From: Coprobacillaceae bacterium
GTDB lineage: Bacteria; Bacillota_I; Bacilli_A; Erysipelotrichales; Coprobacillaceae
Assembly (NCBI GenBank): GCA_963675515.1
Contig: OY776328.1
Span: 2,580,001-2,612,000, forward strand
Direction: 5' to 3'
DNA length: 32,000 nucleotides
The notes under the pieces were generated by a model that made no database searches, was not told the DNA's origin, and was given only the letters and a program-made list of their open reading frames with translations. Position 1 is the first letter of the stretch; each line of letters opens with the position of its first letter. Both the position numbers and the translations under genes were made by a program. This document shows, one piece after another, positions 6,512-21,604 of the stretch.

Positions 6512-8413
6512 CTATTTCAGACCGGCGATTTGCGATTTGACCATTGCCACAAAATCGGCGAAGCTTACAGTGATCTGTTCCTGTTTGCCGTGTTCACGGT
6601 AAGTAACAGTCTTTTCGTCGCGCTCATTATCACCTAAAACCAGAATATAAGGGACTTTCTGGATTTGGGCGTCACGCATCTTCTTGCCAAGCTTTTCTTC
6701 CCGCTCGTCAAGTTCAACCCGGATTCCCTGGGCCTTGAGATTTTCCATTACTTCCTTGGCATACTCGCCGTGGTATTGGTTGTTTACCCCAAGGACTTTT
6801 ACCTGGATTGGAGCCAGCCAGGTCGGGAAATTTCCGGCATAATGTTCGATCAGGATTCCGATGAATCGTTCGATCGATCCATAGACAACGCGATGGACCA
6901 TTACCGGACGGTGTTTTTCCCCGTCTTCACCGATGTAGTTCATATCGAAACGCTCAGGCAGGTTGAAGTCAAGCTGGATTGTCCCGCATTGCCAAGTCCG
7001 GCCGATTGCATCTTTGATCTTGAAGTCCAGTTTGGGACCATAGAACGCACCATCACCAGGATTGAGGACATAGTCGATGCCCCGTTTTTCCAGCACGTTT
7101 TGCAGGGCGCTCTCCGCCTTTTCCCAGATCTCATCGGAACCTATCGCTTTTTCTTCCGGTTTGGTCGAAAGTTCGATATGGTAATCGAAGCCGAAGATAT
7201 CCTTGTAGAAATGGTCAATCAGATCGATCACGCCATTGACTTCCTGTTCTATCTGGTCAGGGAGCATGAAGATATGGGCATCATCCTGAGTGAAAGATCG
7301 AACCCTGAACAAACCATGGAGCGCTCCCGAGTATTCGTGGCGGTGCACCTGTCCCAGTTCTCCCACGCGCATCGGAAACTCCTTGTACGAGTGCAAAGCA
7401 TTCTTATAAACCAGGATCGATCCCGGACAGTTCATCGGCTTGATCGCGAAGATGTTCTCGTCGATCTCAGATGTGTACATATTTTCACGGTAATTGTACC
7501 AGTGACCCGATGTCTCCCAAAGATCCTTGTTCAACATTATCGGAGTCTTGATTTCCTGATATCCGGCTTTTTCATGTTCCTTGCGCCACAGGTTTTCAAG
7601 CTCATTGCGCACAATCATTCCCTTAGGCAGGAAGAACGGGAATCCCGGACCATATTCGGAAACGAAGAAAAGATCCAGGTCTTTTCCCAGTTTGCGGTGG
7701 TCGCGTTTGGCAGCCTCTTCCAGGAATTTCAGGTGGTTGTCAAGATCTTCCTTGGAAAAGAAGCTCACCCCGTAGATTCTCTGGAGCATCGGATTGTTCG
7801 AGTCCCCGCGCCAGTAGGCCCCGGCCAGTGACATCAGCTTGAAATGTTTGATTACCGAAGTAGCCACCACGTGGGGCCCCCGGCAAAGATCGGTGAATTT
7901 CCCCTGGCTGTACAGGGTGATTGTTCCGTCTTCAAGATTCTCGATTAGCTCACTCTTGTATGGGTCGTTTTTGAACATCGCCAAAGCGTCAGCCTTCGAT
8001 ACTTCGCTTCTTGTTATCTTCGCCCCTGCTGCGACAATCCGTTTCATTTCCTTTTCGATTCTAGGAAGATCCGCCTCGGTAATCAATGGATCGGTTTCCA
8101 CGTCGTAATAGAATCCAGTTTCGATATTAGGTCCCACCCCGAATTTGGCACCAGGGTACAAATTGGTGATCGCCTCTGCCATCAGATGGGCAGTCGAGTG
8201 GTTCAACACGTCGATTGCCTGTGCGTCATCCTTGGTGATCAGCTGCAAAGTCGCATCGTTTTCGATTGGCCGGTTGAGATCGACCACTTCGTCATTGACC
8301 TTCGCTGCCACGCACTTTTTCGCCAGTGAGCTTGAAATCGACTTGGCGATTTCCAAAGCCGAAGTTCCAGCTTCGAATTCTTTGATGTTGCCATCTAAAA
8401 ATGTGATTTTCAT
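6512..8413 (-). CDS. thrS: Threonine--tRNA ligase (633 aa)
   Basis: TGS-domain start MKITFLDG, class II aaRS motifs and full length. The ATG at 8413 is preceded by GAGGAGGAATTTT; the ORF-track start at 8494 falls inside the IS right end and was rejected. Confidence 0.95.
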   Translation of the reverse strand: MKITFLDGNIKEFEAGTSALEIAKSISSSLAKKCVAAKVNDEVVDLNRPIENDATLQLITKDDAQAIDVLNHSTAHLMAEAITNLYPGAKFGVGPNIETGFYYDVETDPLITEADLPRIEKEMKRIVAAGAKITRSEVSKADALAMFKNDPYKSELIENLEDGTITLYSQGKFTDLCRGPHVVATSVIKHFKLMSLAGAYWRGDSNNPMLQRIYGVSFFSKEDLDNHLKFLEEAAKRDHRKLGKDLDLFFVSEYGPGFPFFLPKGMIVRNELENLWRKEHEKAGYQEIKTPIMLNKDLWETSGHWYNYRENMYTSEIDENIFAIKPMNCPGSILVYKNALHSYKEFPMRVGELGQVHRHEYSGALHGLFRVRSFTQDDAHIFMLPDQIEQEVNGVIDLIDHFYKDIFGFDYHIELSTKPEEKAIGSDEIWEKAESALQNVLEKRGIDYVLNPGDGAFYGPKLDFKIKDAIGRTWQCGTIQLDFNLPERFDMNYIGEDGEKHRPVMVHRVVYGSIERFIGILIEHYAGNFPTWLAPIQVKVLGVNNQYHGEYAKEVMENLKAQGIRVELDEREEKLGKKMRDAQIQKVPYILVLGDNERDEKTVTYREHGKQEQITVSFADFVAMVKSQIAGLK

Positions 8414-8700
8414 AAAATTCCTCCTCAATTTGAACCTCCCATGACTTAAGTCACGGGATTCTTGGGAACAGAGCTTACTTGATGTATGGTGCATCCACCA
8501 TAATCAGCGGTTTCTCTTGTTTACCAAGCCATCCCCGTAGTCCCTACGGTTTAGTAATTATCTAGGACTGTGCTATTATGCGCAGTCCTTCTTTCAGGAT
8601 GTTCTTGCTCGCATTTATGTCCCTGTCATTGGTGCTGCCACAATTAGGACAAGCCCATTCCCTGATGTGGAGTGGCTTCTTGCCATCCTTGTGGCCACAT
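8410..8700 (-). ncRNA. Candidate omega RNA (reRNA) of TnpB: tnpB 3' end + right-end scaffold + flank-derived guide
   Basis: This is a positional inference from characterised IS200/IS605 elements. Hairpins are visible at 8535-8549 (CCGTAG/CTACGG), 8486-8501 (ATGGTG/CACCAT) and 8438-8457 (RE hairpin). The 5' boundary is not determinable by eye. Confidence 0.4.
8438..8457 (-). repeat. IS200/IS605 right-end (RE) subterminal hairpin
   Basis: Imperfect palindrome CCCGTGACTT/AAGTCATGGG, followed by AGGTTCAA and then the thrS SD. Confidence 0.7.
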
Positions 8701-9710
8701 CCATGGCAAATCTGGCTGGACTCATACCAACGGTCCACCTTGATGATTTCTCTACCATACCATTCAGCCTTGTAGATGAGCTTGTCCACAAATGCCGACC
8801 AGGATACATCGGATATGCTTTTAGCCAGTCTATGATTACGCAACATCCCTTTTGTGTTTAGGTTTTCGACACAGATAACATCGTGGTTTTTGATGATCTG
8901 GGTTGTCAACTTGTTCAAAAAGTCATTGCGTTGGTTCATTACTTTTTCATGAAGCCCTGCCACTTTGCGTCTTTGTTTCTGGTAGTTCTTTGCTCCAAGA
9001 AGATTGATTCCTTTGCTTTTGGCAAGGAGCGCCCGTCTTGACAGCTTTTTCTGTTCGCGGATAAGTTTCTTTTCCATTTGGTTGGTAAACTTATGATTAG
9101 CGACTTTTCTACCATTTGAAAATATCGCAAAGTCACGGATGCCAAGATCAATACCTACTGTCGAATTCGTTTTGGGCAATTGCTCGATCTTTTCTTCAAC
9201 AACAACGGCAATGAAGTATTTGTCACTGGGATTTTTCCGGATAGTCGCTTTAATGATCCTGCCTTTTATCTCCCGGCTCTTGGCGAATCTTACCAGACCT
9301 AACTTAGGCAGCTTGATCGACTTGCCAATTACGGCAATACTGTTGTTAACATTCTTGGTGGTGTAGCTTTGAACCGGATTCTTCTTGCTCTTGTATCGCG
9401 GGTGGCTGTTTTGCTTAGTGAAGAACCTTGCGAATGAATCGGAGAGATTCTTCACCGATGATTGAAGGGCAATGCTGTCTACTTCTTTTAGCCACTGTGT
9501 ATTTTCATCCCGTTTCATCTGAGGAAGCATGGCGGAGCAGGAATTGTAAGACAGACCCTTTCCAGTACCAGCATACTCCTCATTCCACAAATTCAAAAAG
9601 TGATTGTAGACAAATCGGGCACATCCGATCGTTTTACAGATCAGTATCTCCTGTTCACTATTAGGGTAGATCCTGAACTTGTATGCCTTATGGTGCAACA
9701 TCATCATCAC
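8562..9710 (-). CDS. tnpB: TnpB (IS200/IS605 OrfB) RuvC-like RNA-guided endonuclease
   Basis: N-terminus YKFRIYPN. RuvC contexts GIDLGIRDF, VCVENLN and NDRDINASKNI. Zn ribbon CHGCGH...CPNCG. Full length with no frameshifts. Confidence 0.92.
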   Translation of the reverse strand: MMMMLHHKAYKFRIYPNSEQEILICKTIGCARFVYNHFLNLWNEEYAGTGKGLSYNSCSAMLPQMKRDENTQWLKEVDSIALQSSVKNLSDSFARFFTKQNSHPRYKSKKNPVQSYTTKNVNNSIAVIGKSIKLPKLGLVRFAKSREIKGRIIKATIRKNPSDKYFIAVVVEEKIEQLPKTNSTVGIDLGIRDFAIFSNGRKVANHKFTNQMEKKLIREQKKLSRRALLAKSKGINLLGAKNYQKQRRKVAGLHEKVMNQRNDFLNKLTTQIIKNHDVICVENLNTKGMLRNHRLAKSISDVSWSAFVDKLIYKAEWYGREIIKVDRWYESSQICHGCGHKDGKKPLHIREWACPNCGSTNDRDINASKNILKEGLRIIAQS

Positions 9711-10116
9711 CGGATTTCTTTTTCTGACTTTTTATATAATCTCTTATTTGCTGTTGAGTATTATCGCTAACAGTAGCAACAAAGTAACTAGGATTCCACA
9801 AATGACCTTTCCATAGACGACTTTTAAGCTCAGGATGTTGCTTAAACAAGAATCTTGCAGATAACCCTTTGAATGCTTTTACCATACTGGGAATATGGTG
9901 TTGGGGCTTGCAATCGATAAGCAAGTGGATATGGTCCTTATCCGATTCCATTTCAATGATATTTATGTCATTATCAGCTGCAATCTTAGCCAACAATTTC
10001 TTAACATCATCGTCAACTTGACCAGTCAAAATATCGTGACGGTATTTCACACACCAGACCAGATGGTATTGAATTGAATAGACATAACCACGTCCGTAAT
10101 TAATATCAGACATCAT
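9688..10116 (-). CDS. tnpA: TnpA Y1 (HUH) transposase, IS200/IS605 family
   Basis: YHLVWCVKYR, HUH motif DHIHLLI and catalytic Tyr context NPSYFVATV. Overlaps the tnpB start by 23 nt. Confidence 0.92.
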   Translation of the reverse strand: MMSDINYGRGYVYSIQYHLVWCVKYRHDILTGQVDDDVKKLLAKIAADNDINIIEMESDKDHIHLLIDCKPQHHIPSMVKAFKGLSARFLFKQHPELKSRLWKGHLWNPSYFVATVSDNTQQQIRDYIKSQKKKSGDDDVAP

Positions 10117-10249
10117 TTATCACCTCACATACATTGTAACATATGGTTGCTGAAAATTACAGCTTTAAAGCACTTTTAGTCCATAATTTTTAACAATATA
10201 TGTAGGCCATAGAACACAGTTGAAAAGAGTCACAAGAAAGTCGATTCAT

Positions 10250-10269
10250 CTCCATGCTAAAGTCACGAG
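10250..10269 (-). repeat. IS200/IS605 left-end (LE) subterminal hairpin
   Basis: CTCGTGACTTTAGCATGGAG is similar to the RE hairpin and lies about 15-20 nt downstream of the T-box terminator U-tract. Confidence 0.65.
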
Positions 10270-10285
10270 TGTTCTCGACCAGATA

Positions 10286-10490
10286 ATAAAAAGGCCTCCG
10301 TCAAAGGACGAAGACCGTGGTACCACCTTTATTCGCGGCTTAAAGCCGCCTCAAGACCTTAACGCAGTCAACGGCCAGGCTTTTACTGGCAGCTAATAGG
10401 GAGTACCAAACAAGAGCCGCCAAGATTTTCACCAACCATCTTTTCGCTGTTCCGACCTGCTTGTTCAACGTGTCCTATATTATCGCTTGT
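10286..10490 (-). promoter_or_regulatory. T-box riboswitch leader (tRNA-Thr sensing, belongs to thrS)
   Basis: Minus-strand elements: AGCGA (AG bulge), distal loop GGUGAAA, stem III GCGGC-UUUAA-GCCGC and T-box motif AAAGGUGGUACCACGG (10315-10330). Terminator GGUCUUCGUC-CUUU-GACGGAGGCC + UUUUUAUUAU lies at 10286-10316. The specifier loop GGUACUCC contains ACU (Thr). Confidence 0.85.
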
Positions 10491-10496
10491 AATTAA

Positions 10497-10524
10497 ATCA
10501 TATACTTTTATTGGTTTTTGTCAA
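10497..10524 (-). promoter_or_regulatory. Sigma-A type promoter driving the T-box leader
   Basis: TTGACA (10519-10524), 16-nt spacer, TATGAT (10497-10502) on the minus strand. Confidence 0.65.
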
Positions 10525-10553
10525 TAGTTTTGCTTCGATTGCCCTGGCATCGC

Positions 10554-11282
10554 CTAGAATTTCTTTCCGCTGGCCAGTTTTTTAAGATCCTTGACTTCCT
10601 GAGGCTTGAGCATCCGGTATGTTCCCGGTGTCATGTATTTCAAATCGACGCAACCGACTTTCAGGCGGTGGAGCCGTTTGACCGGATGACCGACGCTTTC
10701 GAACATCTTCTTGACCTGACGGTTCTTGCCTTCATAAAGCTTGATCTGGAGCATGGTTGTCTTATGCTCGATATCCTTGCCGATGATCTTGATCTTGCAT
10801 GGCAGGGTTTTGACCCCTTCAAGATAGACCCCTTTTTCAAGCTTGCGGATCGTTTCGCCTTTTAGAAGGCCTTTGATCGATACTTCATAGATCTTTTCAA
10901 GATGGGAACGCGGGTGGGTGATCATATTCGTGAAATCCCCGTCGTTGCTCATAAGCAACACTCCGGTCGTATCGAAGTCCAGCCGGCCGACCGGATAGAT
11001 CCGTTCAGGAACATCAGTGAAATAATCGGTAACCAAAGGACGGCCATGTTCATCCTTCAATGAACAGATTGTACCTTTTGGTTTGTAAAAAACATAATAA
11101 ACTTTGTTTTCGCCTTTAAGTGGTTTTCCATCAACTAAAACAATATCTCCCGATTTTACTTTAGTTCCTAGTGTAGTGACAGTTTCTCCATTTACACTGA
11201 CGCGTCCTTCGACAATCAAGTCTTCGGCTTTGCGTCGCGATGTATAGCCACTTTTTGCGATATATTTTTGTAATCTTTCCAA
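10554..11282 (-). CDS. rluB: RsuA/RluB-family pseudouridine synthase with N-terminal S4 domain
   Basis: S4 domain LQKYIAKSGYTSRRKAEDLIVEGRVSVNG and catalytic motif GRLDFDTTGVLL. TTG start with an AGAGG SD. Confidence 0.8.
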   Translation of the reverse strand: MERLQKYIAKSGYTSRRKAEDLIVEGRVSVNGETVTTLGTKVKSGDIVLVDGKPLKGENKVYYVFYKPKGTICSLKDEHGRPLVTDYFTDVPERIYPVGRLDFDTTGVLLMSNDGDFTNMITHPRSHLEKIYEVSIKGLLKGETIRKLEKGVYLEGVKTLPCKIKIIGKDIEHKTTMLQIKLYEGKNRQVKKMFESVGHPVKRLHRLKVGCVDLKYMTPGTYRMLKPQEVKDLKKLASGKKF

Positions 11283-11513
11283 GTCACTACCTCTTTCTAT
11301 TAGATACGAATCAATAATAACCTAAACTTTCGCAATAAACAATACTAATTTAATTTATAGCGCGATACAATTTCTTGTATTCATACACCATCTTATCTAT
11401 ATCTTAACATTTTTTGTTAAATACGCAAATTATATTGGCATTATCTTCACTATTTCTTCATTATGTTTTTCTACCGGGCACATTTTCGGGCACTATATCC
11501 CCTATATAATATA

Positions 11514-11566
11514 AAGAGCTACACGGCCATTTGATCCATTTCTAACCAAATAGCCGTATAGCTCTT
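11514..11566 (-). terminator. Long imperfect hairpin, possible terminator of the minus-strand orphan operon
   Basis: AAGAGCTACACGGC (11514-11527) pairs with GCCGTATAGCTCTT (11553-11566) in 13 of 14 positions, plus a 5-bp inner extension. On the minus strand it is followed by TATATTATAT. It lies about 240 nt past the 165-aa gene stop, so the assignment is uncertain. Confidence 0.3.
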
Positions 11567-11804
11567 AAAGTGATAATTTACAGCAACAAAATGCTTAAGA
11601 ATAGGATAAAGGTATCAATTAATTCGCAAATAGTATTACTAAACTGAATTAATAAACTCTTCAATATTCAAGATTAGACACTTAAACCATTTATGTAAGA
11701 CATACCTTTAACCTTAAATTAATGTTTGTTTCACAATTATCATCGTGGGAAAAAGTTTTCTAGGTATTTCTGTCTGTTTTAGGTAAATATTGATTTCTAA
11801 TGTT

Positions 11805-12302
11805 CTAAGACCATTCTCCTAATTTGGCTATTACTCTCGCATAGATTTCAGACTCATTATTGTCCTGATCAGTAATTTTTACAGGATAAGATGTTAAAGT
11901 TGAATAGTCAAAATTAGGTTGTTCACTAAAGACAAAAAAATCATAGTAATCACCCGGATTTAGTTCAATGTAACTAGATAATATTTCCTCAGTATAAATT
12001 GAATTGTTTTCAAAATCAATCAATCTAGAATCTTCTATGTTTTCTAAGTTAATATAGAAATTATAATCCCCGTTATTAACTTCTAAGTCATCACTAGAAA
12101 CTACTAGCATGCAAATATATACATTTTCATCACTGAATTCAATGTTCAATTCATTGTCACCATATTTATATATGTACATTGAAGCACTCATACTGGAAGA
12201 ATAATCTGTAATAGCAGCTTCCTTGTCTTGAGTTAAAAAATATATACAAATAATTAATAGAGCAAAAACCACAATTATTGCAGCTTTTTTTGTTTTCTTC
12301 AA
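11805..12302 (-). CDS. Orphan membrane-anchored, highly acidic Asp/Asn/Tyr-rich protein (165 aa)
   Basis: TTG start 9 nt after an AGGAGG SD. N-terminus MKKTKK + TM helix AAIIVVFALLIICIYFL. No family recognised. Confidence 0.6.
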   Translation of the reverse strand: MKKTKKAAIIVVFALLIICIYFLTQDKEAAITDYSSSMSASMYIYKYGDNELNIEFSDENVYICMLVVSSDDLEVNNGDYNFYINLENIEDSRLIDFENNSIYTEEILSSYIELNPGDYYDFFVFSEQPNFDYSTLTSYPVKITDQDNNESEIYARVIAKLGEWS

Positions 12303-12338
12303 TATATTTTGCCTCCTAATGATACATTATTACTTTAA

Positions 12339-12476
12339 TCACTGATAGTATACATAAATATATGTTTCATCTTCATCCGGGACATCAATTGTACCAGTGT
12401 AAGTATTTTGAAGTGTATAGTACCCAATTGCTGTATCATAGTAAGTACTAGTGATTGTAACAGATATATTATAATG
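12339..12476 (-). pseudogene. 3' fragment of the secreted beta-hairpin protein gene split by ISL3
   Basis: It continues the frame of 15068-15477 across the 8-bp TSD: ...HYNISVTITSTYYDTAIGYYTLQNTYTGTIDVPDEDETYIYVYYQ*. The stop TGA is at 12339-12341. Confidence 0.75.
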
Positions 12477-12508
12477 GGCTCTTCGCTGTTTGGTGTGGGT
12501 AACTGCCA

Positions 12509-13747
12509 TTAAGCCTTTGCGACAACCGCTTCAAGATTGAGCTTGCCACACACCAAATATATCAGTGTTTTGAAGTATTCGTCATTCCGAAATCCTCTTG
12601 CCCTGGTCTTGACGTTTTGGATAATACTGTTCATTCCTTCTAGAATTGCATTGGTGTACCTGAACCGGAAATAGTTGAGAATCTCCTCCCAGTGATTACG
12701 GATTAACTTCGCGAATTTCTTCATTGGTTCGAGTCTGGAATGCATCATCCATGAGCACAGTTTTTTGAGTCCTCTGGTTGCCTCTTCAACGGTGTCGCTG
12801 GATTCATAAACATCTTGTAGTGCGAGTCGCATATTATAGGCTCGGGCTGTCTTAAGGTTTAACTTGGCTAAATCAAATTTCTTCTGCTTTTGATTCTCGG
12901 TCAAGTTACTCTCATTCTTTAACCAGATGTACTTGGTTTTCTTTAATAAGAAATTGGTGCGCACTTCATCTTTACGGACTTTGTCTACTGCCTCGTTGGC
13001 GTGTTTTACTACATGAAATTTATCGATAACAGTATTGCTGTTTTTGAAATTTTCTTTGATACCTTTTTTGAAACCTAACGACATGTCGCAAGTAATGATG
13101 TTGATAAGATCAGGATCACCGCCATGCTCCTTGAAGTCCACTACGAAATTATCCACTGTTTTTGAGTCTTTTCCTGGTGTTACGTTGATTACCTTGCGCT
13201 TGGCAAGATCAACGGCAACGGTGATGTAGTTGTGGCCCTTCTTGCTTGTTTCGTCGATACCTATGGCTGTAACATCTGAATAATCTTCTAGTTTACGAGA
13301 CTCATTGACGTAATGCTTGATGAAGCGCCAAAGCCGTGTGTCATGTTCATCGATCATTTGAGCAATGCGAGAAACCGGAAGATGCTTAGCCAACTCTACT
13401 ACCCAACCTTCAAAAAGCAGGGTAAAACCTGATCCCGGTCTTGCCCATGGCACTTTAACAGTTTGGGGACCATGATTATCGCAATTTACACGTGGCAAAT
13501 CAGCATGGATGAATGTCTTGTACTGGAAGAAATTAAGATGTCTCCAGGTCCTTTTGGTTGTATCGTATGCAGTTCCACTTTCTTTACAACCATCAACCGG
13601 GCAAGGGAATTTACCACCCTTGGTAAAACTGATATTTATATGCAATTCCATGCCCTTGTCGGTATCCAGAAAATTGACATCGGAAACAGTCCAAGGTTCA
13701 CCTAAGTTAAGAGCTTTTGTAAATAAGTCCAAAGTATCCATAATCAT
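12509..13747 (-). CDS. ISL3-family transposase (412 aa)
   Basis: The N-terminal Zn-finger-like region (PCPVDGCKESGTAYDTTKRTWRHLNFFQYKTFIHADLPRVNC) and overall layout are typical of ISL3 transposases. The ORF is intact. Confidence 0.9.
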   Translation of the reverse strand: MIMDTLDLFTKALNLGEPWTVSDVNFLDTDKGMELHINISFTKGGKFPCPVDGCKESGTAYDTTKRTWRHLNFFQYKTFIHADLPRVNCDNHGPQTVKVPWARPGSGFTLLFEGWVVELAKHLPVSRIAQMIDEHDTRLWRFIKHYVNESRKLEDYSDVTAIGIDETSKKGHNYITVAVDLAKRKVINVTPGKDSKTVDNFVVDFKEHGGDPDLINIITCDMSLGFKKGIKENFKNSNTVIDKFHVVKHANEAVDKVRKDEVRTNFLLKKTKYIWLKNESNLTENQKQKKFDLAKLNLKTARAYNMRLALQDVYESSDTVEEATRGLKKLCSWMMHSRLEPMKKFAKLIRNHWEEILNYFRFRYTNAILEGMNSIIQNVKTRARGFRNDEYFKTLIYLVCGKLNLEAVVAKA

Positions 13748-13894
13748 TACCTCGTTATCGTTAGTAGTTTATGGATACAATTTTAGGTCATTTTAACTAG
13801 AAGCACAAGAGGCTATACTGGATAGGTTACAATAAATTAGACAAGATTATAAGGACATGATAAAATCTTGTTAAATTTGTGGAGGATATTCAAA

Positions 13895-14188
13895 ATGACA
13901 AAACGCAGACCTAAACGTACTTACACCGATGAATTCAGAATCAAAATGGTTCAACTTTACAACAATGGGAAACCCAGAGCGGAAATAATCCGTGAATACG
14001 ATTTGACAGCTTCAGCGTTCAATAAATGGGTTAAACGCTTCAATGACACGGGTTCGTTTACTGAAGCCGACAATCGATCAGATCATGACAAGGCGCTTAT
14101 CAAGCTCCAAAAAGAAAACGAACGACTGAAGATGGAAAATGATATTTTAAAGCAAGCGGCGCTGATAATGGGACGAAAAGACAAGTAA
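13895..14188 (+). CDS. IS3-family transposase OrfA (HTH, leucine-zipper end)
   Basis: GGAGG SD lies 9 nt upstream. The sequence reads MTKRRPKRTYTDEFRIKMVQLY...LKKENERLKMENDILKQAA. Confidence 0.9.
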   Translation: MTKRRPKRTYTDEFRIKMVQLYNNGKPRAEIIREYDLTASAFNKWVKRFNDTGSFTEADNRSDHDKALIKLQKENERLKMENDILKQAALIMGRKDK

Positions 14189-14223
14189 TCTTTGCCAATA
14201 AACACAAATACTCTATCAGCGCT

Positions 14224-15003
14224 ATGTGCAAAGTCTTGAAAATCTCTCGGGCAACTCTCTACTACAAACCCAAAGGGCGTAAAGTGGATTCGAAGCTTGA
14301 AGATGAAGTAATAAAATCATTCAAAAACAGCAAGAAGAATTATGGAACACGCAAGATAAAAGATGACTTGGATGATTTAAACATGGTTGCCAGCAGAAGA
14401 AAAATTGCTCAAATCATGGACAAATACGGCTTGATTAGTAAATACACCATCAAGCAACGACCAAAGCATTATGGCAAAGTAAATAATGACGATATTGAAA
14501 ATATGATCAATAGAAAATTCCAAGCAGAGCGGCCAATGCAATATTTAACCAGCGACTTGACCTACATCAAGGTGGCTGGAAAATGGAACTATATTTGTCT
14601 GATAATTGATTTGTACAATCGTGAAATCGTTGGTAAATCTAGTGGTCAAAACAAAGACGCCAACTTGGTTATTAAGGCATTAAACGATATAAAAAGTGAT
14701 CTCAGTGATGTCGAGATATTTCATTCAGACCGAGGATCGGAGTTCAAAAACGAGATGATTGATGGGATATTGGCATTGCATGGAATCAAGAGATCGTTGA
14801 GTGCCAAAGGAAAACCGATTGATAACGCGGTATCAGAATCAATGTATAAAATACTCAAAACAGAATTCGCATTCAATCGACAATTCCGCAGTATCGACGA
14901 ATTGTCATTGGAACTGTATGATTATGTCAACTGGTTCAACAACAAAAGGAAGCATGGGAGCCTTAATTACAAAACACCCGTACAATACAGGCTGTCCTTA
15001 TAA
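14224..15003 (+). CDS. IS3-family transposase OrfB (DDE/RNaseH catalytic domain), probably made as an OrfAB fusion by -1 frameshift
   Basis: OrfB is in the -1 frame relative to OrfA. That frame is open back through an A AAA G slippery motif at 14176-14180, reading KRQVIFANKHKYSISAMCKVL. DDE contexts are LTSDLTYI, HSDRGSEF and NAVSESMYKILKTE. Confidence 0.9.
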   Translation: MCKVLKISRATLYYKPKGRKVDSKLEDEVIKSFKNSKKNYGTRKIKDDLDDLNMVASRRKIAQIMDKYGLISKYTIKQRPKHYGKVNNDDIENMINRKFQAERPMQYLTSDLTYIKVAGKWNYICLIIDLYNREIVGKSSGQNKDANLVIKALNDIKSDLSDVEIFHSDRGSEFKNEMIDGILALHGIKRSLSAKGKPIDNAVSESMYKILKTEFAFNRQFRSIDELSLELYDYVNWFNNKRKHGSLNYKTPVQYRLSL

Positions 15004-15067
15004 AAATTGTCTAAAAAAGTGTTGACTATCCATACTCCTGCTTACCCATAGTAAACAGCGAAAGGCC

Positions 15068-15477
15068 TTATAATGTCTTACCAAAGCCTTAAATCGTAAC
15101 TTAGAATTTCTAGATGAATCCGCTGGAATTTCAGTTCCAATTTCAGATGAAGTGGATACACTAGTACCATAAGTAATACCAAAAGAAGCACTTAAATCTG
15201 GCTTCATTATGGTTGAAACTGTAGCAGACAGAGTGGTAGACGATTCAACAGTAACGGATGTAGTCACAGTATACTGTGATGCTTTTACCCAATTTTCCGT
15301 TAGCCATTCATATTCCCAATAAGAATATGATAGATTACAATAATTTACATCTGCACTTGTCGATATCAATCCCCCTGACATTGGTTGAACTTGCATGGCA
15401 TTTACTTCAGCAATGTTTGAAAGCGAAATAAACATTACTAAACCAGCAACTTACAATTTTTAAAATAGTTTCTTCAT
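15068..15477 (-). pseudogene. 5' fragment of the secreted amphipathic beta-hairpin protein gene, with two in-frame TAA codons in the signal peptide
   Basis: The ATG at 15477 sits 7 nt after a G8 SD. The signal peptide reads MKKLF*KL*VAGLVMFISLSNIAEVNA, followed by a Ser/Thr-rich mature region. The gene is truncated by ISL3 at the TSD. Confidence 0.75.
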
Positions 15478-15484
15478 TTTAATT

Positions 15485-15492
15485 CCCCCCCC
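15485..15492 (-). repeat. G8 homopolymer serving as the Shine-Dalgarno of the secreted-protein gene
   Basis: A run of 8 C on the plus strand lies in an otherwise AT-rich island, 7 nt upstream of the ATG at 15477. Confidence 0.8.
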
Positions 15493-15575
15493 TTTTATTT
15501 TTTAGCAAATAACATTTTTGTACAATTTACCTCACCAAGACGATTAAGCTCCAGAAAATCGCTCCCACATGTTAT

Positions 15576-15604
15576 ATTATACACATTTAACTTAATTTTC
15601 ACAA
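15576..15604 (-). promoter_or_regulatory. Strong sigma-A type promoter of the secreted-protein operon
   Basis: TTGTGA (15599-15604), 17-nt spacer, TATAAT (15576-15581) on the minus strand. This gives a 5' UTR of about 90 nt. Confidence 0.6.
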
Positions 15605-15650
15605 GTGTTTAAGTTTTTTTAGGCTTATTTCAAACACCCCGCCACTAGCA

Positions 15651-15712
15651 TCAGTCAGTGAAATTATAAAGATAAATCAAGGACGATGGGAGATTGAAGA
15701 ATCCTTTAGAAT
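15651..15712 (+). pseudogene. IS4/IS1634-like transposase gene remnant, part 1 (5'-truncated)
   Basis: Reads ...EIIKINQGRWEIEESFRI up to the TSD of the inserted element. There is no upstream transposase sequence, and the left limit is approximate. Confidence 0.65.
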
Positions 15713-15740
15713 CCTAAAAGTTAGATAACCTGTACTCAAA

Positions 15741-17525
15741 TCATAACCCCGATTTTAGCCCAAGTTTTTCAATAAACATGTTGTCTCTCTTTGTGATTTC
15801 AGTAGTCCACCGCTTGGCTTGTAACGCTGAAGATATTTCAACTCCTTCGATGGCATCAAACCATTGAAGTTGCAAATATATTGGCGTATTATCAAGCCAA
15901 CTTTTGAGTTTCTTTTCTTGATCCAGGTTTACTTTCAGGTCATGGTCATGATTACCGTTTGGTACACCAAGCGACAACTTCATTTTTCTAACAGCTTCGC
16001 TATAGTATTCGTAGTAGCATAAAGCTATGAATTGTACAAACATTCTACCGCGAAGGGTTTCTGCGTCCCATACCCTGATTCGCATACTATCGGCATGTTG
16101 CTTGGATGAACGGAAATATCCCTCGATATGCTCGCGTTTTCTATACTTTGAAAGTGCAACAAACGTTTCTTTTTCTTTACTGGAAACCAATGTGAAGTAC
16201 CCGTGGTATTGCTTGGCTTCGGCACATGCCTTTTCGTTGAAGCTTATTACCGTCTTCTTGCCCCAATTCCTGATGATCAGATACTTCTTCACCTTTTTTT
16301 GCGCCGCATCATTTAAATCACCTACTGGCGTTCCGTCCTCAAGTCTATTTTTAAGAGCGAGCAATTCCCGCTCAAATGCCTGATCTTCATCAACCTTTCG
16401 GGTAGTGCTGCAGTATATATGGAGATACACGCGACGGGTAAAGGTTTCTTCCTCACCTTGGGCAGCTCCAGTCTTTTTATTGGCATATTTACGTATCTTG
16501 GTGAAGTCACGCATGAGCGTAACCGTGATTCCACGGGTGGTTGGGTCATATGGACAGACGCTTGAAAGTCGATCTAAATCTTTTAGGTGACTGTCGATTT
16601 GAGACCTGATCCATTTGAGACCTGGCTTGGCCAGAGTGATAAAATCAAAATGGGCCTGGTACATTTTAGATATGTTCTGTTCAGAATAATAGCCATTGTC
16701 TGTTATTATTTCTGCGTCTGACACCCCAAGTGCCAACAGTTGGTTTAATGCATTCTCGACCGCCAACATGTCAGGCAAATCACCCGGTTGCTTAGTAAAT
16801 GCGATGGGCTGCCTTTTATCGATTGAATAGAGTGCAACATATTTAACTGTCTTTAAGCCATCACCGGCCTTATTGAAACCGTACCTGGCTTCTAACTGGT
16901 TCTCTGAGTAAGCGGAAAAAGTCGTTGAATCATAAGCGATACCGGAACCACCATTCAATGCTTCACACCGGCATTTGAAATAGTTCTGCTGCAAATTTTC
17001 GTCAAGCCCCACATCTTTAAAGAGCCGGTGGTAAATCTCTTCGGAGATGCCCTCACTGTAAGGCAAAGGATGATTGTATTGCCAGGTCGCTATTCCAGGC
17101 AGGCTTTGCCCGTCTGATGCAAATAGATATCTAGCCAAGGATATGATTTTTTGTGCAGTCCCCGAATCGGTATTTGCATATATGGCAGAGTCTATTCCTG
17201 AGGTCTTACCTATATGGTCTATGATGTTCATCATTCCCACTCGGTTACGCGATGCGGACATTTGAGGGCTCAAAGGAACGTGTTTTTCAGACACTTCACT
17301 CGACACAATTACAGACTTTTCCGTCTTTTGTGTTCGTTTTGGTCGTGTTGGGACTGAAATTTCTGAGCCTTTTGGAATTTTGGACAACAACTTTGTCGAT
17401 AGCACTCTGTTATATTTTTTTACTGGATCATACATGGTTTTTCGTTCAAGAACGTAGATATCACCGTTCTTTTGTGGACTGTGGATAATGCGGGTTTTAA
17501 TTTCACCGGATGATTTTGCAGGCAT
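15741..17525 (-). CDS. IS4-superfamily (IS1634-like) DDE transposase, 594 aa, apparently intact
   Basis: The ATG at 17525 lies 8 nt after a GAGGTG SD. Motifs include YDSTTFSAY, ITDNGYYSEQN and an exact Y(2)R(3)E(6)K signature in YRKREHIEGYFRSSK. Confidence 0.85.
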   Translation of the reverse strand: MPAKSSGEIKTRIIHSPQKNGDIYVLERKTMYDPVKKYNRVLSTKLLSKIPKGSEISVPTRPKRTQKTEKSVIVSSEVSEKHVPLSPQMSASRNRVGMMNIIDHIGKTSGIDSAIYANTDSGTAQKIISLARYLFASDGQSLPGIATWQYNHPLPYSEGISEEIYHRLFKDVGLDENLQQNYFKCRCEALNGGSGIAYDSTTFSAYSENQLEARYGFNKAGDGLKTVKYVALYSIDKRQPIAFTKQPGDLPDMLAVENALNQLLALGVSDAEIITDNGYYSEQNISKMYQAHFDFITLAKPGLKWIRSQIDSHLKDLDRLSSVCPYDPTTRGITVTLMRDFTKIRKYANKKTGAAQGEEETFTRRVYLHIYCSTTRKVDEDQAFERELLALKNRLEDGTPVGDLNDAAQKKVKKYLIIRNWGKKTVISFNEKACAEAKQYHGYFTLVSSKEKETFVALSKYRKREHIEGYFRSSKQHADSMRIRVWDAETLRGRMFVQFIALCYYEYYSEAVRKMKLSLGVPNGNHDHDLKVNLDQEKKLKSWLDNTPIYLQLQWFDAIEGVEISSALQAKRWTTEITKRDNMFIEKLGLKSGL

Positions 17526-17540
17526 TTCTAGCACCTCACT

Positions 17541-17572
17541 TTGAGTATATATTAATTATAATATATACTCAA
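17541..17572. repeat. Perfect 14-bp-stem palindrome abutting the transposase SD
   Basis: TTGAGTATATATTA-ATTA-TAATATATACTCAA. Confidence 0.85.
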
Positions 17573-17675
17573 ATAAAAATCAACATAAATCCAGTAAAAT
17601 AAAGGGTTTCAGGCCTATTTGAGAGAGAATATTTGTACTCATAATGATTTGAGTACATGAAATCAAACTTTTAGG

Positions 17676-17983
17676 TTAGAATAATGAAAACTGAATTTAA
17701 AGCAAGACCCGTTTACTTGGAAAGACAAGATCGGATAAAGGCACACTTCTTGGTATGTTATCTATCATTGGTGATATTCAGAATACTTGAAAAGAAATTA
17801 TCTGAGAAGTACACCGCAGGGACAATAATTAAGACATTACGCAACATGAACTTCAAACACTATGACGGTTACGGATACATCCCAACTTATACCAGAACCA
17901 ATCTGACCGATGAATTACACGATATTTTTGGCTTTAGGACCGACACCCAAATAGTAAGTGAAAAAAATATGAAAAAAATTTAA
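17676..17983 (+). pseudogene. IS4/IS1634-like transposase gene remnant, part 2 (C-terminus)
   Basis: Removing the insert and one TSD copy restores RWEIEESFRIMKTEFKARPVYLERQDRIKAHFLVCYLSL..., with an R(3)E(6)K signature. The 3' IS terminus was not located. Confidence 0.75.
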
Positions 17984-18036
17984 AAAAAAAGTTAGAGCAT
18001 AGAAAAAATACTACATTTTTCATCAAATCAAAAAAA

Positions 18037-18072
18037 CCGGAAACCTTTTGTGTACAAGGATTTCCGGGTTTT
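18037..18072 (+). terminator. Rho-independent terminator
   Basis: CCGGAAACCTT...AAGGATTTCCGG hairpin followed by GTTTT and preceded by A7, so it could act bidirectionally. Confidence 0.6.
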
Positions 18073-18144
18073 AGCTATTGATTAAGTGTCAAAGACAGGA
18101 TTTTATCATGACTATCTTAAAATTAAAAGAAAGGAATGATAATT

Positions 18145-18853
18145 ATGGCAATTTCAAAACGCGGTGACGTCTGGCAGGTGAGCTTCAGATACAAGGACCG
18201 GTACGGTCGCCACAAGAGATACCGCAAAAGTGGTTTCAAGAGGCAGAAAGATGCGGCCAACCACGAAACGAAGATGAAGAACGAACTGCTGGACACCGGA
18301 ATCATCTACCAGCGCAAGAAAATGACAATCAACGATGTCTGGGACGAGTTCAGCAAGAATGATCATACTCTGGCCATCTCGACTAAAGAAAACTATGAAA
18401 TGTACTTCAACAGGCATATTCGTAATAGTATCAGGCAAACATATATTGATACTGTCGACTACAAACTCATGCAGGACTTTTTCGCCGACCTAGGTCGCAA
18501 TAATCCAAAGTCTACCTGTGATGGTGTATACCGGGTCTGCAATAAGCTCTTCAAGTACGCATATAACCTCGAATACATCCAAAGGCTACCATACACATCA
18601 ATGGTGATAAAAGGCCGCCCTAGAGCGAAAAAACGCAAGGAACATATAATCTCACATGAACAGTATCAGGAGATATGCGACTTCATCAGAAATTCTTACC
18701 GGATCCACACCCCAAGACGGCGTTCGGCTTTGATAGCTGTTGAGCTTGGATATTATACCGGGATGCGTATTGGGGAGATCCTCGCACTTGACAAGGATGA
18801 TTTGGACTTCAATCTGATGCAGATTAACGTGGACAAGTCGCTGGCTTATTTAC
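18145..18853 (+). pseudogene. int: Tyrosine recombinase (phage/ICE-type integrase), 5' part, split by an IS
   Basis: Arm-binding type N-terminus MAISKRGDVWQVSFRYKDRYGRHKRYRKSGF, a core-binding domain and YTGMRIGEILAL (catalytic Arg). It ends at the TSD ATTTAC. Confidence 0.85.
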
Positions 18854-20632: not shown

Positions 20633-21021
20633 ATTTACCAAGGACAAAGGAGCTCATAATAAAATCACCAAAGAGTGCATCATCGGCTGCCAAGATTCCT
20701 CTACCAGAAGAAATCAAAGACGATCTGCTGGAATGGCTAGAGATATGCCCGACCACTTACCTGCTTTGCACCAACGACCTGGATTACATCAGACCAACGT
20801 CACTGATGAACTTTTTCTCATACATGTCCAAGCACATAGGATTCCCTTTCCACTTCCATATGCTCCGGCATACATTCGCGACAACACTCTGGCGAAACGA
20901 TGTCGATATCAAGTATGCTCAAAGGCTCCTGCGGCATGAGAATTACAGCACAACAATGGACGTCTACACAGAGATAGAAAACGAAAATTTAAACGATATT
21001 ACAAGCAACCTGAAACGCTAG
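20633..21021 (+). pseudogene. int: Tyrosine recombinase, 3' part (catalytic C-terminus)
   Basis: Reads PRTKELIIKSPKSASSAAKIPLP...HMLRHTFATTLW...LLRHENYSTTMDVYTEI (H-x-x-R, H and Y). Joining it to 18145-18853 minus one TSD copy gives an uninterrupted 363-codon ORF. Confidence 0.85.
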
Positions 21022-21054
21022 TGGACACAAATTGGCCACAATTCACAACTCTAT

Positions 21055-21087
21055 AATAAAAAATGGCTAAAATAGGCCATTTTTTTG
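21055..21087. terminator. Bidirectional terminator between int and the 79-aa gene
   Basis: A-run, ATGGC-loop-GCCAT hairpin, then T7. Confidence 0.55.
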
Positions 21088-21099
21088 CTATACACAACA

Positions 21100-21339
21100 T
21101 CAATTTACATAATGTTCCTGGTTTTCACTTGCCACCCTGATGATGAAATCACGGATCGGTTCGACAATGATGTCACGGGTGGAGATGTCAATATTGTTTT
21201 CCTTGCATTTCAGGTAAAAATTGTATATCGCCCAGTTGACGTCCTTGGAAAGGCAAAAGGAAATCAAATCGGAAAAATAAGTTGAAATAATCCGATAGTC
21301 GTCGATCTGGCTATCCGGTATCGCTTCGAAGCCTTTCAT
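21100..21339 (-). CDS. Orphan 79-aa protein
   Basis: GAAGGTGAG SD lies 4 nt before the ATG. AT-rich composition matches the island. No family recognised. Confidence 0.5.
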   Translation of the reverse strand: MKGFEAIPDSQIDDYRIISTYFSDLISFCLSKDVNWAIYNFYLKCKENNIDISTRDIIVEPIRDFIIRVASENQEHYVN

Positions 21340-21359
21340 GATCTCACCTTCTCTTTTCC

Positions 21360-21368
21360 ATTATAACA
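21360..21368 (-). promoter_or_regulatory. Candidate extended -10 promoter (TGTTATAAT) of the 79-aa gene
   Basis: TGTTATAAT lies on the minus strand about 20 nt upstream of the ATG. The -35 (TTTCAC) is weak. Confidence 0.3.
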
Positions 21369-21573
21369 CAATCATCGGACCAGTGAAATAATATGCATTC
21401 AAAGATATATCGAAAACTTATAACCAGATTTTGTGATTTGTTCAGCTTCAGGAAAGTACATTCTGATCCATTGACGATTGCCTGCAAATATGACAAGGCA
21501 AAAAAAATGATGCAGTTTCCATATCACCTGATGATCAAAGCAATGTTATTTGCGTGTTGCACAAATTCCAATC

Positions 21574-21604
21574 AAAAAATTGATGCCCGCCTTAAGGGGC
21601 GGGC
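21574..21604 (-). terminator. Alcohol dehydrogenase gene terminator
   Basis: GCCCGCC-loop-GGCGGGC 7-bp GC stem, followed on the minus strand by ATCAATTTTTTGAT. Confidence 0.7.

What the first reader, a model, noticed from the sequence alone, without database searches (positions are those of the whole stretch)
8414..10524. IS200/IS605 element inserted precisely between the thrS T-box terminator and the thrS ribosome-binding site
A promoter (TTGACA-16-TATGAT) and a complete T-box leader lie at 10286-10524 on the minus strand, with the motif AAAGGUGGUACCACGG, a terminator and a Thr ACU in the specifier loop. The thrS ATG is 1.87 kb further on. The gap is filled by tnpA-tnpB in the same orientation. 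The LE hairpin starts ~15-20 nt after the terminator U-tract, and the RE hairpin ends ~24 nt before the thrS ATG. T-box read-through transcripts must therefore cross the whole IS to reach thrS, or thrS now depends on an IS-borne promoter. It would also place transposase and TnpB expression under tRNA-Thr charging control.
Basis: partly seen in the sequence, partly recalled or inferred. Interest (0 to 1): 0.7.

Follow-up and report, generated by a model that had tools for sequence, protein, structure and literature searches.

The report
IS605 transposon splitting thrS from its T-box
A 1.86-kb IS200/IS605 transposon (tnpA-tnpB) has landed exactly between the threonine-sensing T-box riboswitch and the threonyl-tRNA synthetase gene it controls, which close relatives lacking the insert confirm; it is a clean natural example of an ordinary kind of event, not a new system.

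Summary
A promoter, a full-length Thr (ACU) T-box leader and its terminator lie at 10286-10524(-). RF00230 matches at E=9e-16 and 74.7 bits, below Rfam's cut-off of 93. thrS starts at 8413. The DNA between is a 1856-bp IS605-group element (8430-10285, minus strand) with tnpA and tnpB.

- **Empty site:** Five fetched loci from relatives (ThrS 87-95% identical) keep rluB-T-box-thrS-thyA without the IS. They read GGCC-TTTTTAT|ATTGAGGAGG-ATG. The IS sits after TTTAT, the tail of the terminator U-tract, 3 nt before the thrS Shine-Dalgarno.
- **Element ends:** Sister copies share the same ends (TTTAT| ... GAGGTTCAA|). TTTAT is also the TAM of ISGst2 TnpB.
- **Read-through:** No intrinsic terminator lies on the thrS strand inside the IS. 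A conserved extended -10 tnpA promoter points toward thrS. The leader is still strongly conserved.
- **Precedent:** A related clade has a natural T-box-GNAT-thrS operon.

Most likely thrS is transcribed through the IS, both by T-box read-through and from the tnpA promoter.

Two new points emerged. This copy alone has a 1-nt deletion that destroys its left-end hairpin, so it is probably locked in place. The ωRNA guide would be the thrS SD and ATG. Terminator tails are not a preferred target of this family (2 of 43 sites). This is a new member of a known kind, of moderate interest.

The parts
10497..10524 (-). Sigma-70-type promoter of the thrS leader (TTGACA-16-TATGAT)
   Evidence: matches 11 of 12 consensus positions. 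It is invariant in the -35 and nearly so in the -10 across orthologues.
10301..10492 (-). T-box leader (Stem I through antiterminator/terminator)
   Evidence: RF00230, full model 1-219, 74.7 bits, E=9.1e-16, below the gathering score of 93. Orthologues score 67.7-88 bits. A distant clade scores 114 bits.
10402..10404 (-). Specifier codon ACU (Thr)
   Evidence: It aligns to the specifier position of the model. GNUACUCCC is invariant in four orthologues. AAUACUCCC occurs in the 79% clade.
10315..10330 (-). T-box sequence AAAGGTGGTACCACGG (antiterminator 5' side with UGGU bulge)
   Evidence: Sequence. It is invariant in the orthologues.
10286..10316 (-). Leader terminator: 10-pair stem (10316-10293) plus U-tract TTTTTAT (10292-10286). 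The last five bases, TTTAT (10290-10286), are the IS target site and presumptive TAM.
   Evidence: for the terminator. Searches show TTTAT abutting the IS here and in the sister copies. TTTAT is the wild-type TAM of ISGst2 TnpB2 (bioRxiv 10.1101/2023.03.14.532601).
8430..10285 (-). IS200/IS605-family element (IS605 group, tnpA-tnpB), 1856 bp, TATCTGG...GAGGTTCAA
   Evidence: Empty-site alignment. Homology with L087, L088 and L089 ends exactly at 8430. Ten sister right ends from the collected loci, aligned with the window's, all end in GAGGTTCAA.
10250..10269 (-). LE subterminal hairpin position, defective here: 1-nt deletion between 10257 and 10256 (GACTTTAG-CATGG instead of GACTTTAGTCATGG)
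   Evidence: One search gives the alignment; no hairpin forms, MFE -1.5 kcal/mol against -3.4 to -5.8 for sister LEs; all 32 distinct sister LEs have the T, and the window has 1 contiguous stem pair where 8 is typical.
10133..10141 (-). Presumptive tnpA promoter, extended -10 TGTTACAAT, pointing toward tnpA, tnpB and thrS
   Evidence: TGTTA(C/A)AAT-like box at a fixed distance from the tnpA SD in six diverged full-length copies. This is an inference and was not tested.
9688..10116 (-). tnpA (Y1/HUH transposase), 142 aa. The usual stop TAA has become TCC, adding 8 aa and overlapping tnpB.
   Evidence: PF01797, E=1e-42. HUH motif and Tyr127 conserved, C-terminal extension present. One search shows the junction DNA.
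8562..9704 (-). tnpB (RNA-guided nuclease), 380 aa
   Evidence: for the three Pfam domains. D184, E278, D360 and both CxxC pairs are invariant; differences from L087 are 27, 12 and 85 at codon positions 1, 2 and 3, indicating purifying selection.
8430..8590 (-). Right end and presumptive ωRNA scaffold, including hairpin 8549-8535, a long-range helix and the RE hairpin 8457-8438
   Evidence: fold z-score -4.57; 12 of 19 consensus pairs carry compensatory changes across 11 copies; the RE non-coding region is 92% identical to L087, against 78% identity at tnpB third-codon positions.
8410..8429 (-). RE-flanking 20 nt, ATTGAGGAGGAATTTTATGA. This is the presumptive ωRNA guide and contains the thrS SD (8425-8419) and start codon (8413-8411).
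   Evidence: Position directly 3' of the RE. The guide role is inferred from the TnpB mechanism (PMC8612924; bioRxiv 10.1101/2023.03.14.532601). The first 16 nt (8414-8429) are unique in the window.
6512..8413 (-). thrS, 633 aa, intact
   Evidence: TGS, tRNA_SAD, tRNA-synt_2b and HGTP_anticodon domains all present; 95% identity to its nearest relatives.
10554..11282 (-). rluB-like pseudouridine synthase, the conserved upstream neighbour
   Evidence: Synteny with the relatives.

Best explanation
An autonomous IS605-group element transposed into the thrS leader on the terminal branch leading to this genome. It carries a Y1 transposase TnpA, the RNA-guided nuclease TnpB and an ωRNA, and it targets TTTAT like ISGst2. 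It inserted 3' of TTTAT at the end of the T-box terminator's U-tract, 3 nt upstream of the thrS Shine-Dalgarno. No target duplication was made.

- Shown: the T-box, its promoter and thrS are all intact.
- Inferred: thrS is now transcribed through the 1.86-kb element. Two kinds of transcript contribute. One is T-box read-through made when uncharged tRNA-Thr stabilises the antiterminator. The other starts at the element's own extended -10 tnpA promoter. Nothing on that strand looks like a terminator. Thr control of thrS would therefore be retained but diluted by a constitutive IS-driven component. tnpA, tnpB and the ωRNA would gain a Thr-starvation-inducible component.
- Shown: this copy has a 1-nt deletion that abolishes its left-end hairpin, and its tnpA stop codon has changed.
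- Inferred: both changes arose after insertion, because an element needs an intact LE hairpin to transpose. The hairpin loss probably prevents TnpA-mediated excision, so the insertion is fixed in place.
- Inferred: the ωRNA guide of this copy is the thrS SD and AUG. A precise excision would recreate TTTAT plus that guide match, which is a TnpB target. This is the standard homing logic.

My confidence in the structural part is about 0.95. My confidence in the dual-promoter read-through model is about 0.55.
For: - Empty sites in syntenic relatives define both junctions to the base.
- Sister copies share TTTAT| ... GAGGTTCAA|.
- Pfam domains and catalytic residues are intact, and tnpB is under purifying selection.
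- TTTAT is the wild-type TAM of ISGst2 TnpB2. TnpA and TnpB use the same motif, and the donor joint is the TAM plus the RE flank.
- The only minus-strand terminator-like site in 8300-10700 is the T-box terminator itself.
- The extended -10 box before tnpA is conserved in six diverged copies.
- The leader and promoter have 3 substitutions in 245 nt on the window's branch, against at least 84 in 634 third-codon positions of thrS on the same branch.
- A related clade (ThrS 79% identical) has T-box(ACU)-GNAT-thrS. A Thr T-box driving thrS across an intervening ORF is therefore natural in this family.
- The LE hairpin defect is unique among 33 distinct left ends.
- The ωRNA scaffold is supported by covariation and a fold z-score of -4.57.
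Against: - No expression data exist, so transcript starts and read-through are inferred.
- Conservation of the leader covers the whole branch. It would look the same if the insertion were very recent and the T-box were already decoupled.
- Rho-dependent or RNase-mediated breaks inside the IS cannot be seen from sequence.
- ωRNA maturation may cut transcripts at or near the thrS SD and reduce productive thrS mRNA.
- A second thrS gene elsewhere in the 2.88-Mb genome could not be checked, because the contig is not in the position index.
- The LE deletion could in principle be an assembly error.
Confidence: 0.6

Rival explanations
1. The T-box is already orphaned. Transcripts that pass the T-box do not reach thrS in useful amounts, because of length, processing at the ωRNA or Rho. 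thrS is expressed constitutively from the tnpA promoter or another IS-internal promoter. The leader looks conserved only because the insertion is recent.
For: - A conserved IS promoter faces thrS.
- The insertion is confined to this terminal branch and absent from all relatives, so it may be young.
- The genome carries many IS elements at this locus, consistent with weak selection against such insertions.
Against: - No terminator is predicted between the T-box and thrS.
- T-box-ORF-thrS operons exist in relatives.
- The copy has had time to acquire three private lesions in its mobility and junction sequences while the 245-nt leader took only 3 substitutions.
- No sigma-70 match of at least 9 of 12 positions lies on the thrS strand near the RE.
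Confidence: 0.25
2. The arrangement has been co-opted. Either the T-box makes transposase, TnpB and ωRNA expression respond to threonine starvation as a selected trait. Or TnpB bound to its ωRNA scaffold sits on the thrS 5' UTR, whose SD and AUG form the guide segment, and modulates thrS translation or mRNA stability.
For: - The guide segment coincides with the thrS SD and AUG.
- TnpB is intact and under purifying selection.
- The LE defect would fix the element in place.
- TnpB processes its own mRNA into ωRNA (PMC10278001, listed; abstract only). Domesticated TnpB-derived regulators are also known (bioRxiv 10.1101/2023.11.30.569447, listed; abstract only).
Against: - The arrangement is found in one genome only.
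- No recurrence of T-box plus this LE was found in metagenomes.
- The TnpB nuclease residues are retained, unlike domesticated TldR-type proteins.
- Every feature is what a selfish IS produces at any insertion site.
- The other same-genome copies are equally well conserved.
Confidence: 0.08
3. Assembly artefact: a repeated IS was wrongly placed into the thrS leader by the assembler.
For: The genome holds at least five other copies of the family. The source reads were not available.
Against: - Both junctions obey the family's rules to the base: TTTAT on the left, GAGGTTCAA on the right, no duplication, and scarless flanks matching the empty site.
- This copy's TnpB differs from every other same-genome copy by 6.6-8.9% and has private lesions. 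It is therefore not a collapsed or borrowed repeat.
Confidence: 0.02
4. IStron-like element: the IS is removed from the thrS transcript by self-splicing, which restores a short T-box-thrS leader at the RNA level.
For: IStrons are IS605-type elements with TnpB that splice out of host RNA (PMC13521648; bioRxiv 10.1101/2023.11.20.567912, found).
Against: - No group I intron match appears, even in the permissive Rfam scan of 8300-10700.
- The left non-coding part is only 169 nt and is occupied by the LE and the tnpA promoter.
- The insertion is in a leader, where splicing is not needed.
Confidence: 0.01

Closest known systems
ISGst2-type IS605-group elements of Geobacillus stearothermophilus (Meers et al., bioRxiv 10.1101/2023.03.14.532601)
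   Same: Both have tnpA plus tnpB in the same orientation, TTTAT as the shared target site and TAM, subterminal hairpins, an ωRNA overlapping the tnpB 3' end and RE with its guide taken from the RE flank, and scarless insertion without duplication.
   Different: Direct sequence relatedness to ISGst2 was not measured here. The nearest named TnpBs are enterococcal, Isachenkonia and Siminovitchia proteins at 71-74% identity. This copy has a broken LE hairpin and a read-through tnpA stop.
IS608 (Helicobacter pylori) and ISDra2 (Deinococcus radiodurans), the mechanistic models of the family
   Same: Both use peel-and-paste single-strand transposition 3' of a fixed 4-5 nt motif (TTAC or TTGAT from my own knowledge, TTTAT here). 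The RE ends in TCAA, as I recall for IS608. The HUH motif and catalytic Tyr127 are conserved.
   Different: The target motif differs and the ends are only distantly related. Nothing comparable about a riboswitch-gene junction has been described for these elements, as far as my two literature searches show.
thrS/thrZ T-box leaders of Bacillus subtilis (RF00230)
   Same: Both have a Thr specifier, the T-box sequence with a UGGU bulge, mutually exclusive antiterminator and terminator, and a location in front of thrS.
   Different: The match scores below Rfam's gathering threshold. The Stem I GA/K-turn motif is degenerate (GAUAA where the consensus has UGA). The specifier is ACU followed by C rather than a purine. 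The regulated ORF is 1.87 kb away.
T-box-GNAT-thrS operon of the 79%-identity Erysipelotrichaceae/Beduini-like clade (L133-L137)
   Same: A Thr (ACU) T-box controls thrS across an intervening ORF in the same orientation.
   Different: The intervening gene there is a 178-aa acetyltransferase overlapping thrS by 8 nt, giving a compact and presumably selected operon. It is not a 1.86-kb mobile element with its own promoter and guide RNA.
IStrons (for example CdISt1 of Clostridioides difficile)
   Same: These are IS605-type elements with TnpB and ωRNA that sit inside host transcription units and must coexist with host gene expression.
   Different: No group I intron is present here, and RNA-level removal is neither possible nor required.

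Membership tests
T-box leader (RF00230) | Full-length match to the covariance model at or above the curated gathering score | tested here: not met
   The match is 74.7 bits against a gathering score of 93, although E=9.1e-16 and the full model 1-219 is covered. Orthologues score 67.7-88 bits. The more distant orthologue L134 scores 114 bits. The family assignment rests on the E-value, on orthology and on the features in the other T-box rows.
T-box leader (RF00230) | Specifier codon in the Stem I specifier loop that matches the amino acid of the downstream gene | tested here: met
   ACU (Thr) at 10404-10402 sits at the model's specifier position. It is invariant in the orthologues, which all precede thrS.
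T-box leader (RF00230) | Conserved T-box sequence forming an antiterminator with a UGGN bulge, mutually exclusive with an intrinsic terminator | tested here: met
   AAAGGUGGUACCACGG is at 10330-10315. The terminator stem 10316-10293 overlaps the 3' half of the antiterminator and is followed by a U-tract.
T-box leader (RF00230) | Stem I K-turn (GA motif) and distal AG-bulge/loop platform for the tRNA elbow | tested here: inconclusive
   The distal motifs ACAGCGA and GGUUGGUGAAA align well. The basal GA motif reads GAUAA where the consensus has UGA.
T-box leader (RF00230) | Binding of uncharged tRNA-Thr and read-through in response | not testable with these tools
   There is no tRNA gene in the window and no expression data.
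IS200/IS605 family, IS605 group | Y1 (HUH) transposase TnpA with the catalytic tyrosine | tested here: met
   PF01797, E=1e-42. H62-I-H64 and Y127 are conserved.
IS200/IS605 family, IS605 group | TnpB with the RuvC D-E-D triad and zinc-finger cysteines | tested here: met
   Three Pfam domains are present. D184, E278, D360 and both CxxC pairs are invariant across six homologues.
IS200/IS605 family, IS605 group | Insertion 3' of a fixed short motif, without target-site duplication or terminal inverted repeats | tested here: met
   The empty site reads TTTTTAT|ATTGAGG and the occupied site reads TTTTTAT[IS]ATTGAGG. TTTAT flanks the sister copies.
IS200/IS605 family, IS605 group | Subterminal imperfect hairpins at both LE and RE, recognised by TnpA | tested here: not met
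   The RE hairpin is intact (8457-8438, -7.1 kcal/mol). The LE hairpin is destroyed by a 1-nt deletion found in this copy alone. The element is a family member by descent, but this copy is probably not mobile.
IS200/IS605 family, IS605 group | Structured ωRNA overlapping the tnpB 3' end and RE, ending at the element boundary | tested here: met
   The fold z-score is -4.57. 12 of 19 pairs have compensatory changes. Conservation stops at GAGGTTCAA. Expression of the RNA was not tested.
IStron | Group I intron fused to the 5' side of the IS605-like element | tested here: not met
   No Intron_gpI match appears in the permissive Rfam scan of 8300-10700.

The most novel reading that the evidence does not exclude
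The insertion has become a fixed, functional composite. The T-box makes TnpA, TnpB and ωRNA expression respond to threonine starvation. TnpB bound to the ωRNA scaffold on thrS-linked transcripts gates thrS translation or mRNA stability, because the guide segment is the thrS Shine-Dalgarno and start codon. The element is held in place by its broken LE hairpin. This would be a first natural case of a riboswitch-controlled transposon, and of a TnpB RNP acting in cis on the mRNA of an essential host gene.
Probability: 0.08. Interest if true: 0.7.

Novelty: new member of a known kind. Interest (0 to 1): 0.35.

Why it matters
The locus is a natural experiment. A transcription-attenuation riboswitch has been separated from its essential target gene by 1.86 kb of mobile DNA that carries its own promoter, two ORFs and a guide RNA.

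- If RNA-seq shows T-box read-through still feeds thrS, it measures how far T-box control can act. It also shows how a transposon's expression can be captured by a host sensor.
- If not, it shows an essential aminoacyl-tRNA synthetase surviving on a transposon promoter.
- The locus also provides a ready test case for ωRNA biogenesis where the guide and its 3' extension are a translated host mRNA.
- It provides a natural LE-hairpin mutant for testing excision requirements.

None of this changes current understanding of either system. Each component behaves as its family predicts.

Tried and rejected
- **Exact-protein look-ups failed.** Look-ups of the window's TnpB, ThrS and TnpA, and of P0001, P0121 and P0122 from the 2.88-Mb source contig, all returned nothing. 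That contig is not in the position index. I could not read the other same-genome IS copies as DNA, and I could not look for a second thrS.
- **Species-representative genomes were too distant.** The genome-contig scan with ThrS gave only relatives of 65% identity or less, which are useless as empty sites. The large protein collection was needed instead.
- **A dedicated terminator or riboswitch target was rejected.** I asked whether this IS family targets T-box or terminator tails.
  - A pattern linking the T-box motif to the LE found nothing in metagenomes.
  - Only 2 of 43 sister insertion sites meet a strict hairpin-plus-U-tract test, against 1.45% of 1722 control TTTAT sites.
  - About five more sites sit a few nt past a terminator, judged by eye.
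  - The family targets TTTAT, and U-tract tails are an occasional source of that motif.
- **IStron was rejected**.
- **No strong internal promoter near the RE.** The best candidates match only 8 of 12 consensus positions.
- **tnpA SD sequestration not supported.** The MFE fold of the T-box-LE read-through RNA pairs the tnpA SD with the junction sequence. I saw no supporting covariation in the sister LE alignment, so I do not claim it.
- **No tRNA gene in the window.** The discriminator base and anticodon could not be checked.
- **Relative age could not be resolved.** All same-genome copies differ by 7-9%, and this copy is not an outlier. The insertion cannot be dated.
Full report
**1. What is in the sequence**

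All features lie on the minus strand. In order, they are as follows.

- An rluB-like pseudouridine synthase gene occupies 10554-11282.
- A near-consensus promoter, TTGACA-16-TATGAT, lies at 10524-10497 and matches 11 of 12 positions.
- A T-box leader follows. RF00230 matches 10301-10492 over the whole model (positions 1-219), at E=9.1e-16 and 74.7 bits. Rfam's gathering score is 93, so the default scan of the window returned nothing.
- The T-box sequence AAAGGUGGUACCACGG is at 10330-10315.
- The terminator is a 10-pair stem (10316-10293) followed by TTTTTAT.
- The triplet at the model's specifier position is ACU (10404-10402).
- thrS (633 aa, all four domains) starts at 8413 and is preceded by GAGGAGG at 8425-8419.
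- tnpA (Y1_Tnp) and tnpB (HTH_OrfB_IS605, OrfB_IS605, Cas12f1-like_TNB) lie between the leader and thrS, in the same orientation.

**2. Proof of insertion**

The species-representative genome collection held nothing closer than 65% ThrS identity. The large protein collection did hold closer relatives, with ThrS at 95%, 91% and 87% identity, from Erysipelotrichaceae-type MAGs.

Their contigs (L081-L086) have the same gene order: Fe-ADH, a small ORF, rluB, thrS, then thyA-folA. In L085 a radical-SAM gene sits between thrS and thyA. The rluB-thrS gap is only about 270-290 nt and contains no IS.

The alignment shows both junctions.

- Relatives read ...GACGGAGGCC TTTTTAT|ATTGAGGAGGAATATTATG.
- The window reads ...GACGGAGGCC TTTTTAT[TATCTGGTCGAG...GGGAGGTTCAA]ATTGAGGAGGAATTTTATG.

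The element is therefore 8430-10285, 1856 bp, with no target duplication. It lies after the last base of the terminator U-tract and 3 nt before the SD. The orthologous leaders are themselves full-length RF00230 matches at 67.7-88 bits.

**3. The element and its family**

Three sister copies from other samples were compared: L087 at 89% nt identity, and L088 and L089 at 79%. All align up to exactly 8430 and are flanked by TTTAT on the left and unrelated DNA after GAGGTTCAA on the right. A left-end pattern scan retrieved 43 more loci with the same TTTAT-LE architecture.

TTTAT is the wild-type TAM of ISGst2 TnpB2. In that system TnpA and TnpB read the same motif, and the donor joint is the TAM plus the RE flank (bioRxiv 10.1101/2023.03.14.532601).

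The coding capacity of this copy is intact.

- TnpA keeps the HUH motif and Tyr127.
- TnpB keeps D184, E278, D360 and both CxxC pairs.
- Against L087, tnpB differs at 27, 12 and 85 sites at codon positions 1, 2 and 3, which indicates purifying selection.

The last 160 nt fold far better than shuffles (z=-4.57). Across 11 copies, 12 of 19 consensus pairs carry compensatory changes, including a long-range helix. This is the ωRNA scaffold expected of a TnpB element. By position, its guide is ATTGAGGAGGAATTTT(ATGA), which is the thrS SD and start codon.

**4. How thrS can still be expressed**

- *Shown:* the only minus-strand terminator-like site between 10700 and 8300 is the T-box terminator.
- *Shown:* an extended -10 box (TGTTACAAT, 10141-10133) sits at a fixed distance from the tnpA SD in six diverged copies.
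- *Shown:* nothing on that strand near the RE matches more than 8 of 12 promoter positions.
- *Inferred:* thrS is reached both by T-box read-through RNA and by tnpA-promoter RNA.

Two observations make the T-box route credible.

- The leader plus promoter took 3 substitutions in 245 nt on the window's branch, with L086 as outgroup. thrS third-codon positions took at least 84 in 634 on the same branch. The leader has therefore been under strong constraint for most or all of that time. This cannot separate the periods before and after insertion.
- In the 79%-identity clade the Thr T-box (114 bits, the same ACU context) lies upstream of a GNAT gene that overlaps thrS. T-box control of thrS across an intervening ORF is therefore natural in this group.

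**5. New findings about this copy**

- **Broken LE hairpin.** The window reads GACTTTAG-CATGG where all 32 distinct sister left ends read GACTTTAGT(C/G). In 23 of the 32, the stem has 8 contiguous pairs. Here it has 1. As DNA the canonical hairpin no longer forms. The MFE is -1.5 kcal/mol, against -3.4 to -5.8 for sister LEs and -7.1 for this copy's own RE. TnpA recognises the end hairpins, so this copy is probably excision-defective. That is an inference.
- **Lost tnpA stop codon.** The stop TAA has become TCC. This adds 8 residues to TnpA and changes the tnpB SD from AAGGTGA to CCGGTGA.

An element needs an intact LE hairpin to transpose, so the hairpin deletion must have arisen after insertion. 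The tnpA stop change probably did too.

**6. Is the site special?**

No.

- A pattern joining the T-box motif to the LE found nothing in metagenomes.
- Only 2 of 43 sister sites abut a terminator by a strict test, against 1.45% of control TTTAT sites. A handful more lie a few nt beyond one.

The family targets TTTAT, and a U-tract ending in TTTAT is simply one such site. The genome is IS-rich here. About 10 kb of ISL3, IS3 and DDE_Tnp_1 transposase genes and an integrase remnant lie just upstream of rluB and are absent from relatives. This fits a lineage in which mildly deleterious insertions persist. Same-genome TnpB copies differ from one another by 7-9%, and this copy is not an outlier.

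**7. Rivals**

- **Orphaned T-box, with thrS expressed from the IS promoter only.** This remains possible at about 0.25.
- **Co-opted regulatory composite.** This is not excluded, but nothing requires it (about 0.08).
- **Assembly artefact.** This is very unlikely given rule-perfect junctions and a unique copy sequence.
- **IStron.** This is excluded, because no group I intron is present.

**8. Verdict**

The regulatory consequences remain inference. This is a new, well-documented instance of a known kind of event, with three extras worth a follow-up experiment:

- The riboswitch has been displaced 1.87 kb from its gene.
- The ωRNA guide is the SD and AUG of an essential gene.
- A natural LE-hairpin lesion probably locks the element in place.

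Noticed in passing
window 11300-21600: About 10 kb of lower-GC DNA (31-43%) lies between rluB and the Fe-ADH gene and is absent from the syntenic relatives. It encodes an ISL3 transposase (12509-13747-), an IS3-type rve integrase (14224-15003+), two DDE_Tnp_1 transposases (15741-17534-, 19081-20547-) and a truncated phage integrase (18136-18876+). This is an IS pile-up next to the thrS locus.
   Followed up: partly
window 8477-8555 (-): There is a weak Rfam match to RF02841, 'Ref70 Enterococcus sRNA 70' (E=1.3), inside the ωRNA scaffold. This TnpB is about 73% identical to E. faecium and E. avium TnpBs. Ref70 may therefore be the ωRNA of an enterococcal IS605 element rather than a free-standing sRNA.
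   Followed up: no
L092, L098, L104, L106, L107, L109, L113, L116, L121, L132 (LE-pattern matches): In 10 of 32 distinct left-end matches, the LE hairpin is followed immediately by GAGGTTCA(A), which is the RE terminus. These look like roughly 46-nt single-hairpin mini-elements. They could be 'solo' products of recombination between the LE and RE hairpins.
   Followed up: no
L133-L137, 741-3408: In the clade with 79% ThrS identity, the Thr T-box (114 bits, specifier ACU) precedes a 178-aa GNAT acetyltransferase gene that overlaps thrS by 8 nt. This gives a T-box-GNAT-thrS operon.
   Followed up: partly
window 9686-9712 (-): The tnpA stop codon TAA, seen in L087, is TCC here. TnpA gains 8 residues and now overlaps tnpB. 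The tnpB Shine-Dalgarno AAGGTGA becomes CCGGTGA.
   Followed up: partly
L090, L094, L115, L117, L124, L125 (1380-1509 bp) and L103 (537 bp): Elements with the same TTTAT-LE and GAGGTTCAA ends are much shorter than the 1.85-kb tnpA-tnpB form. They are probably tnpB-only and MITE-like derivatives.
   Followed up: no
L087 1860-1920: The closest sister copy (89% nt) also sits directly after a terminator-like hairpin and TTTTTAT, downstream of an MFS transporter gene and about 100 nt upstream of a co-oriented EAL-domain gene.
   Followed up: partly
window 10301-10492 (-) and L081, L085, L086: This clade's thrS T-boxes all score below Rfam's gathering threshold (67.7-88 bits against 93). Standard annotation pipelines would therefore miss them.
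   Followed up: yes
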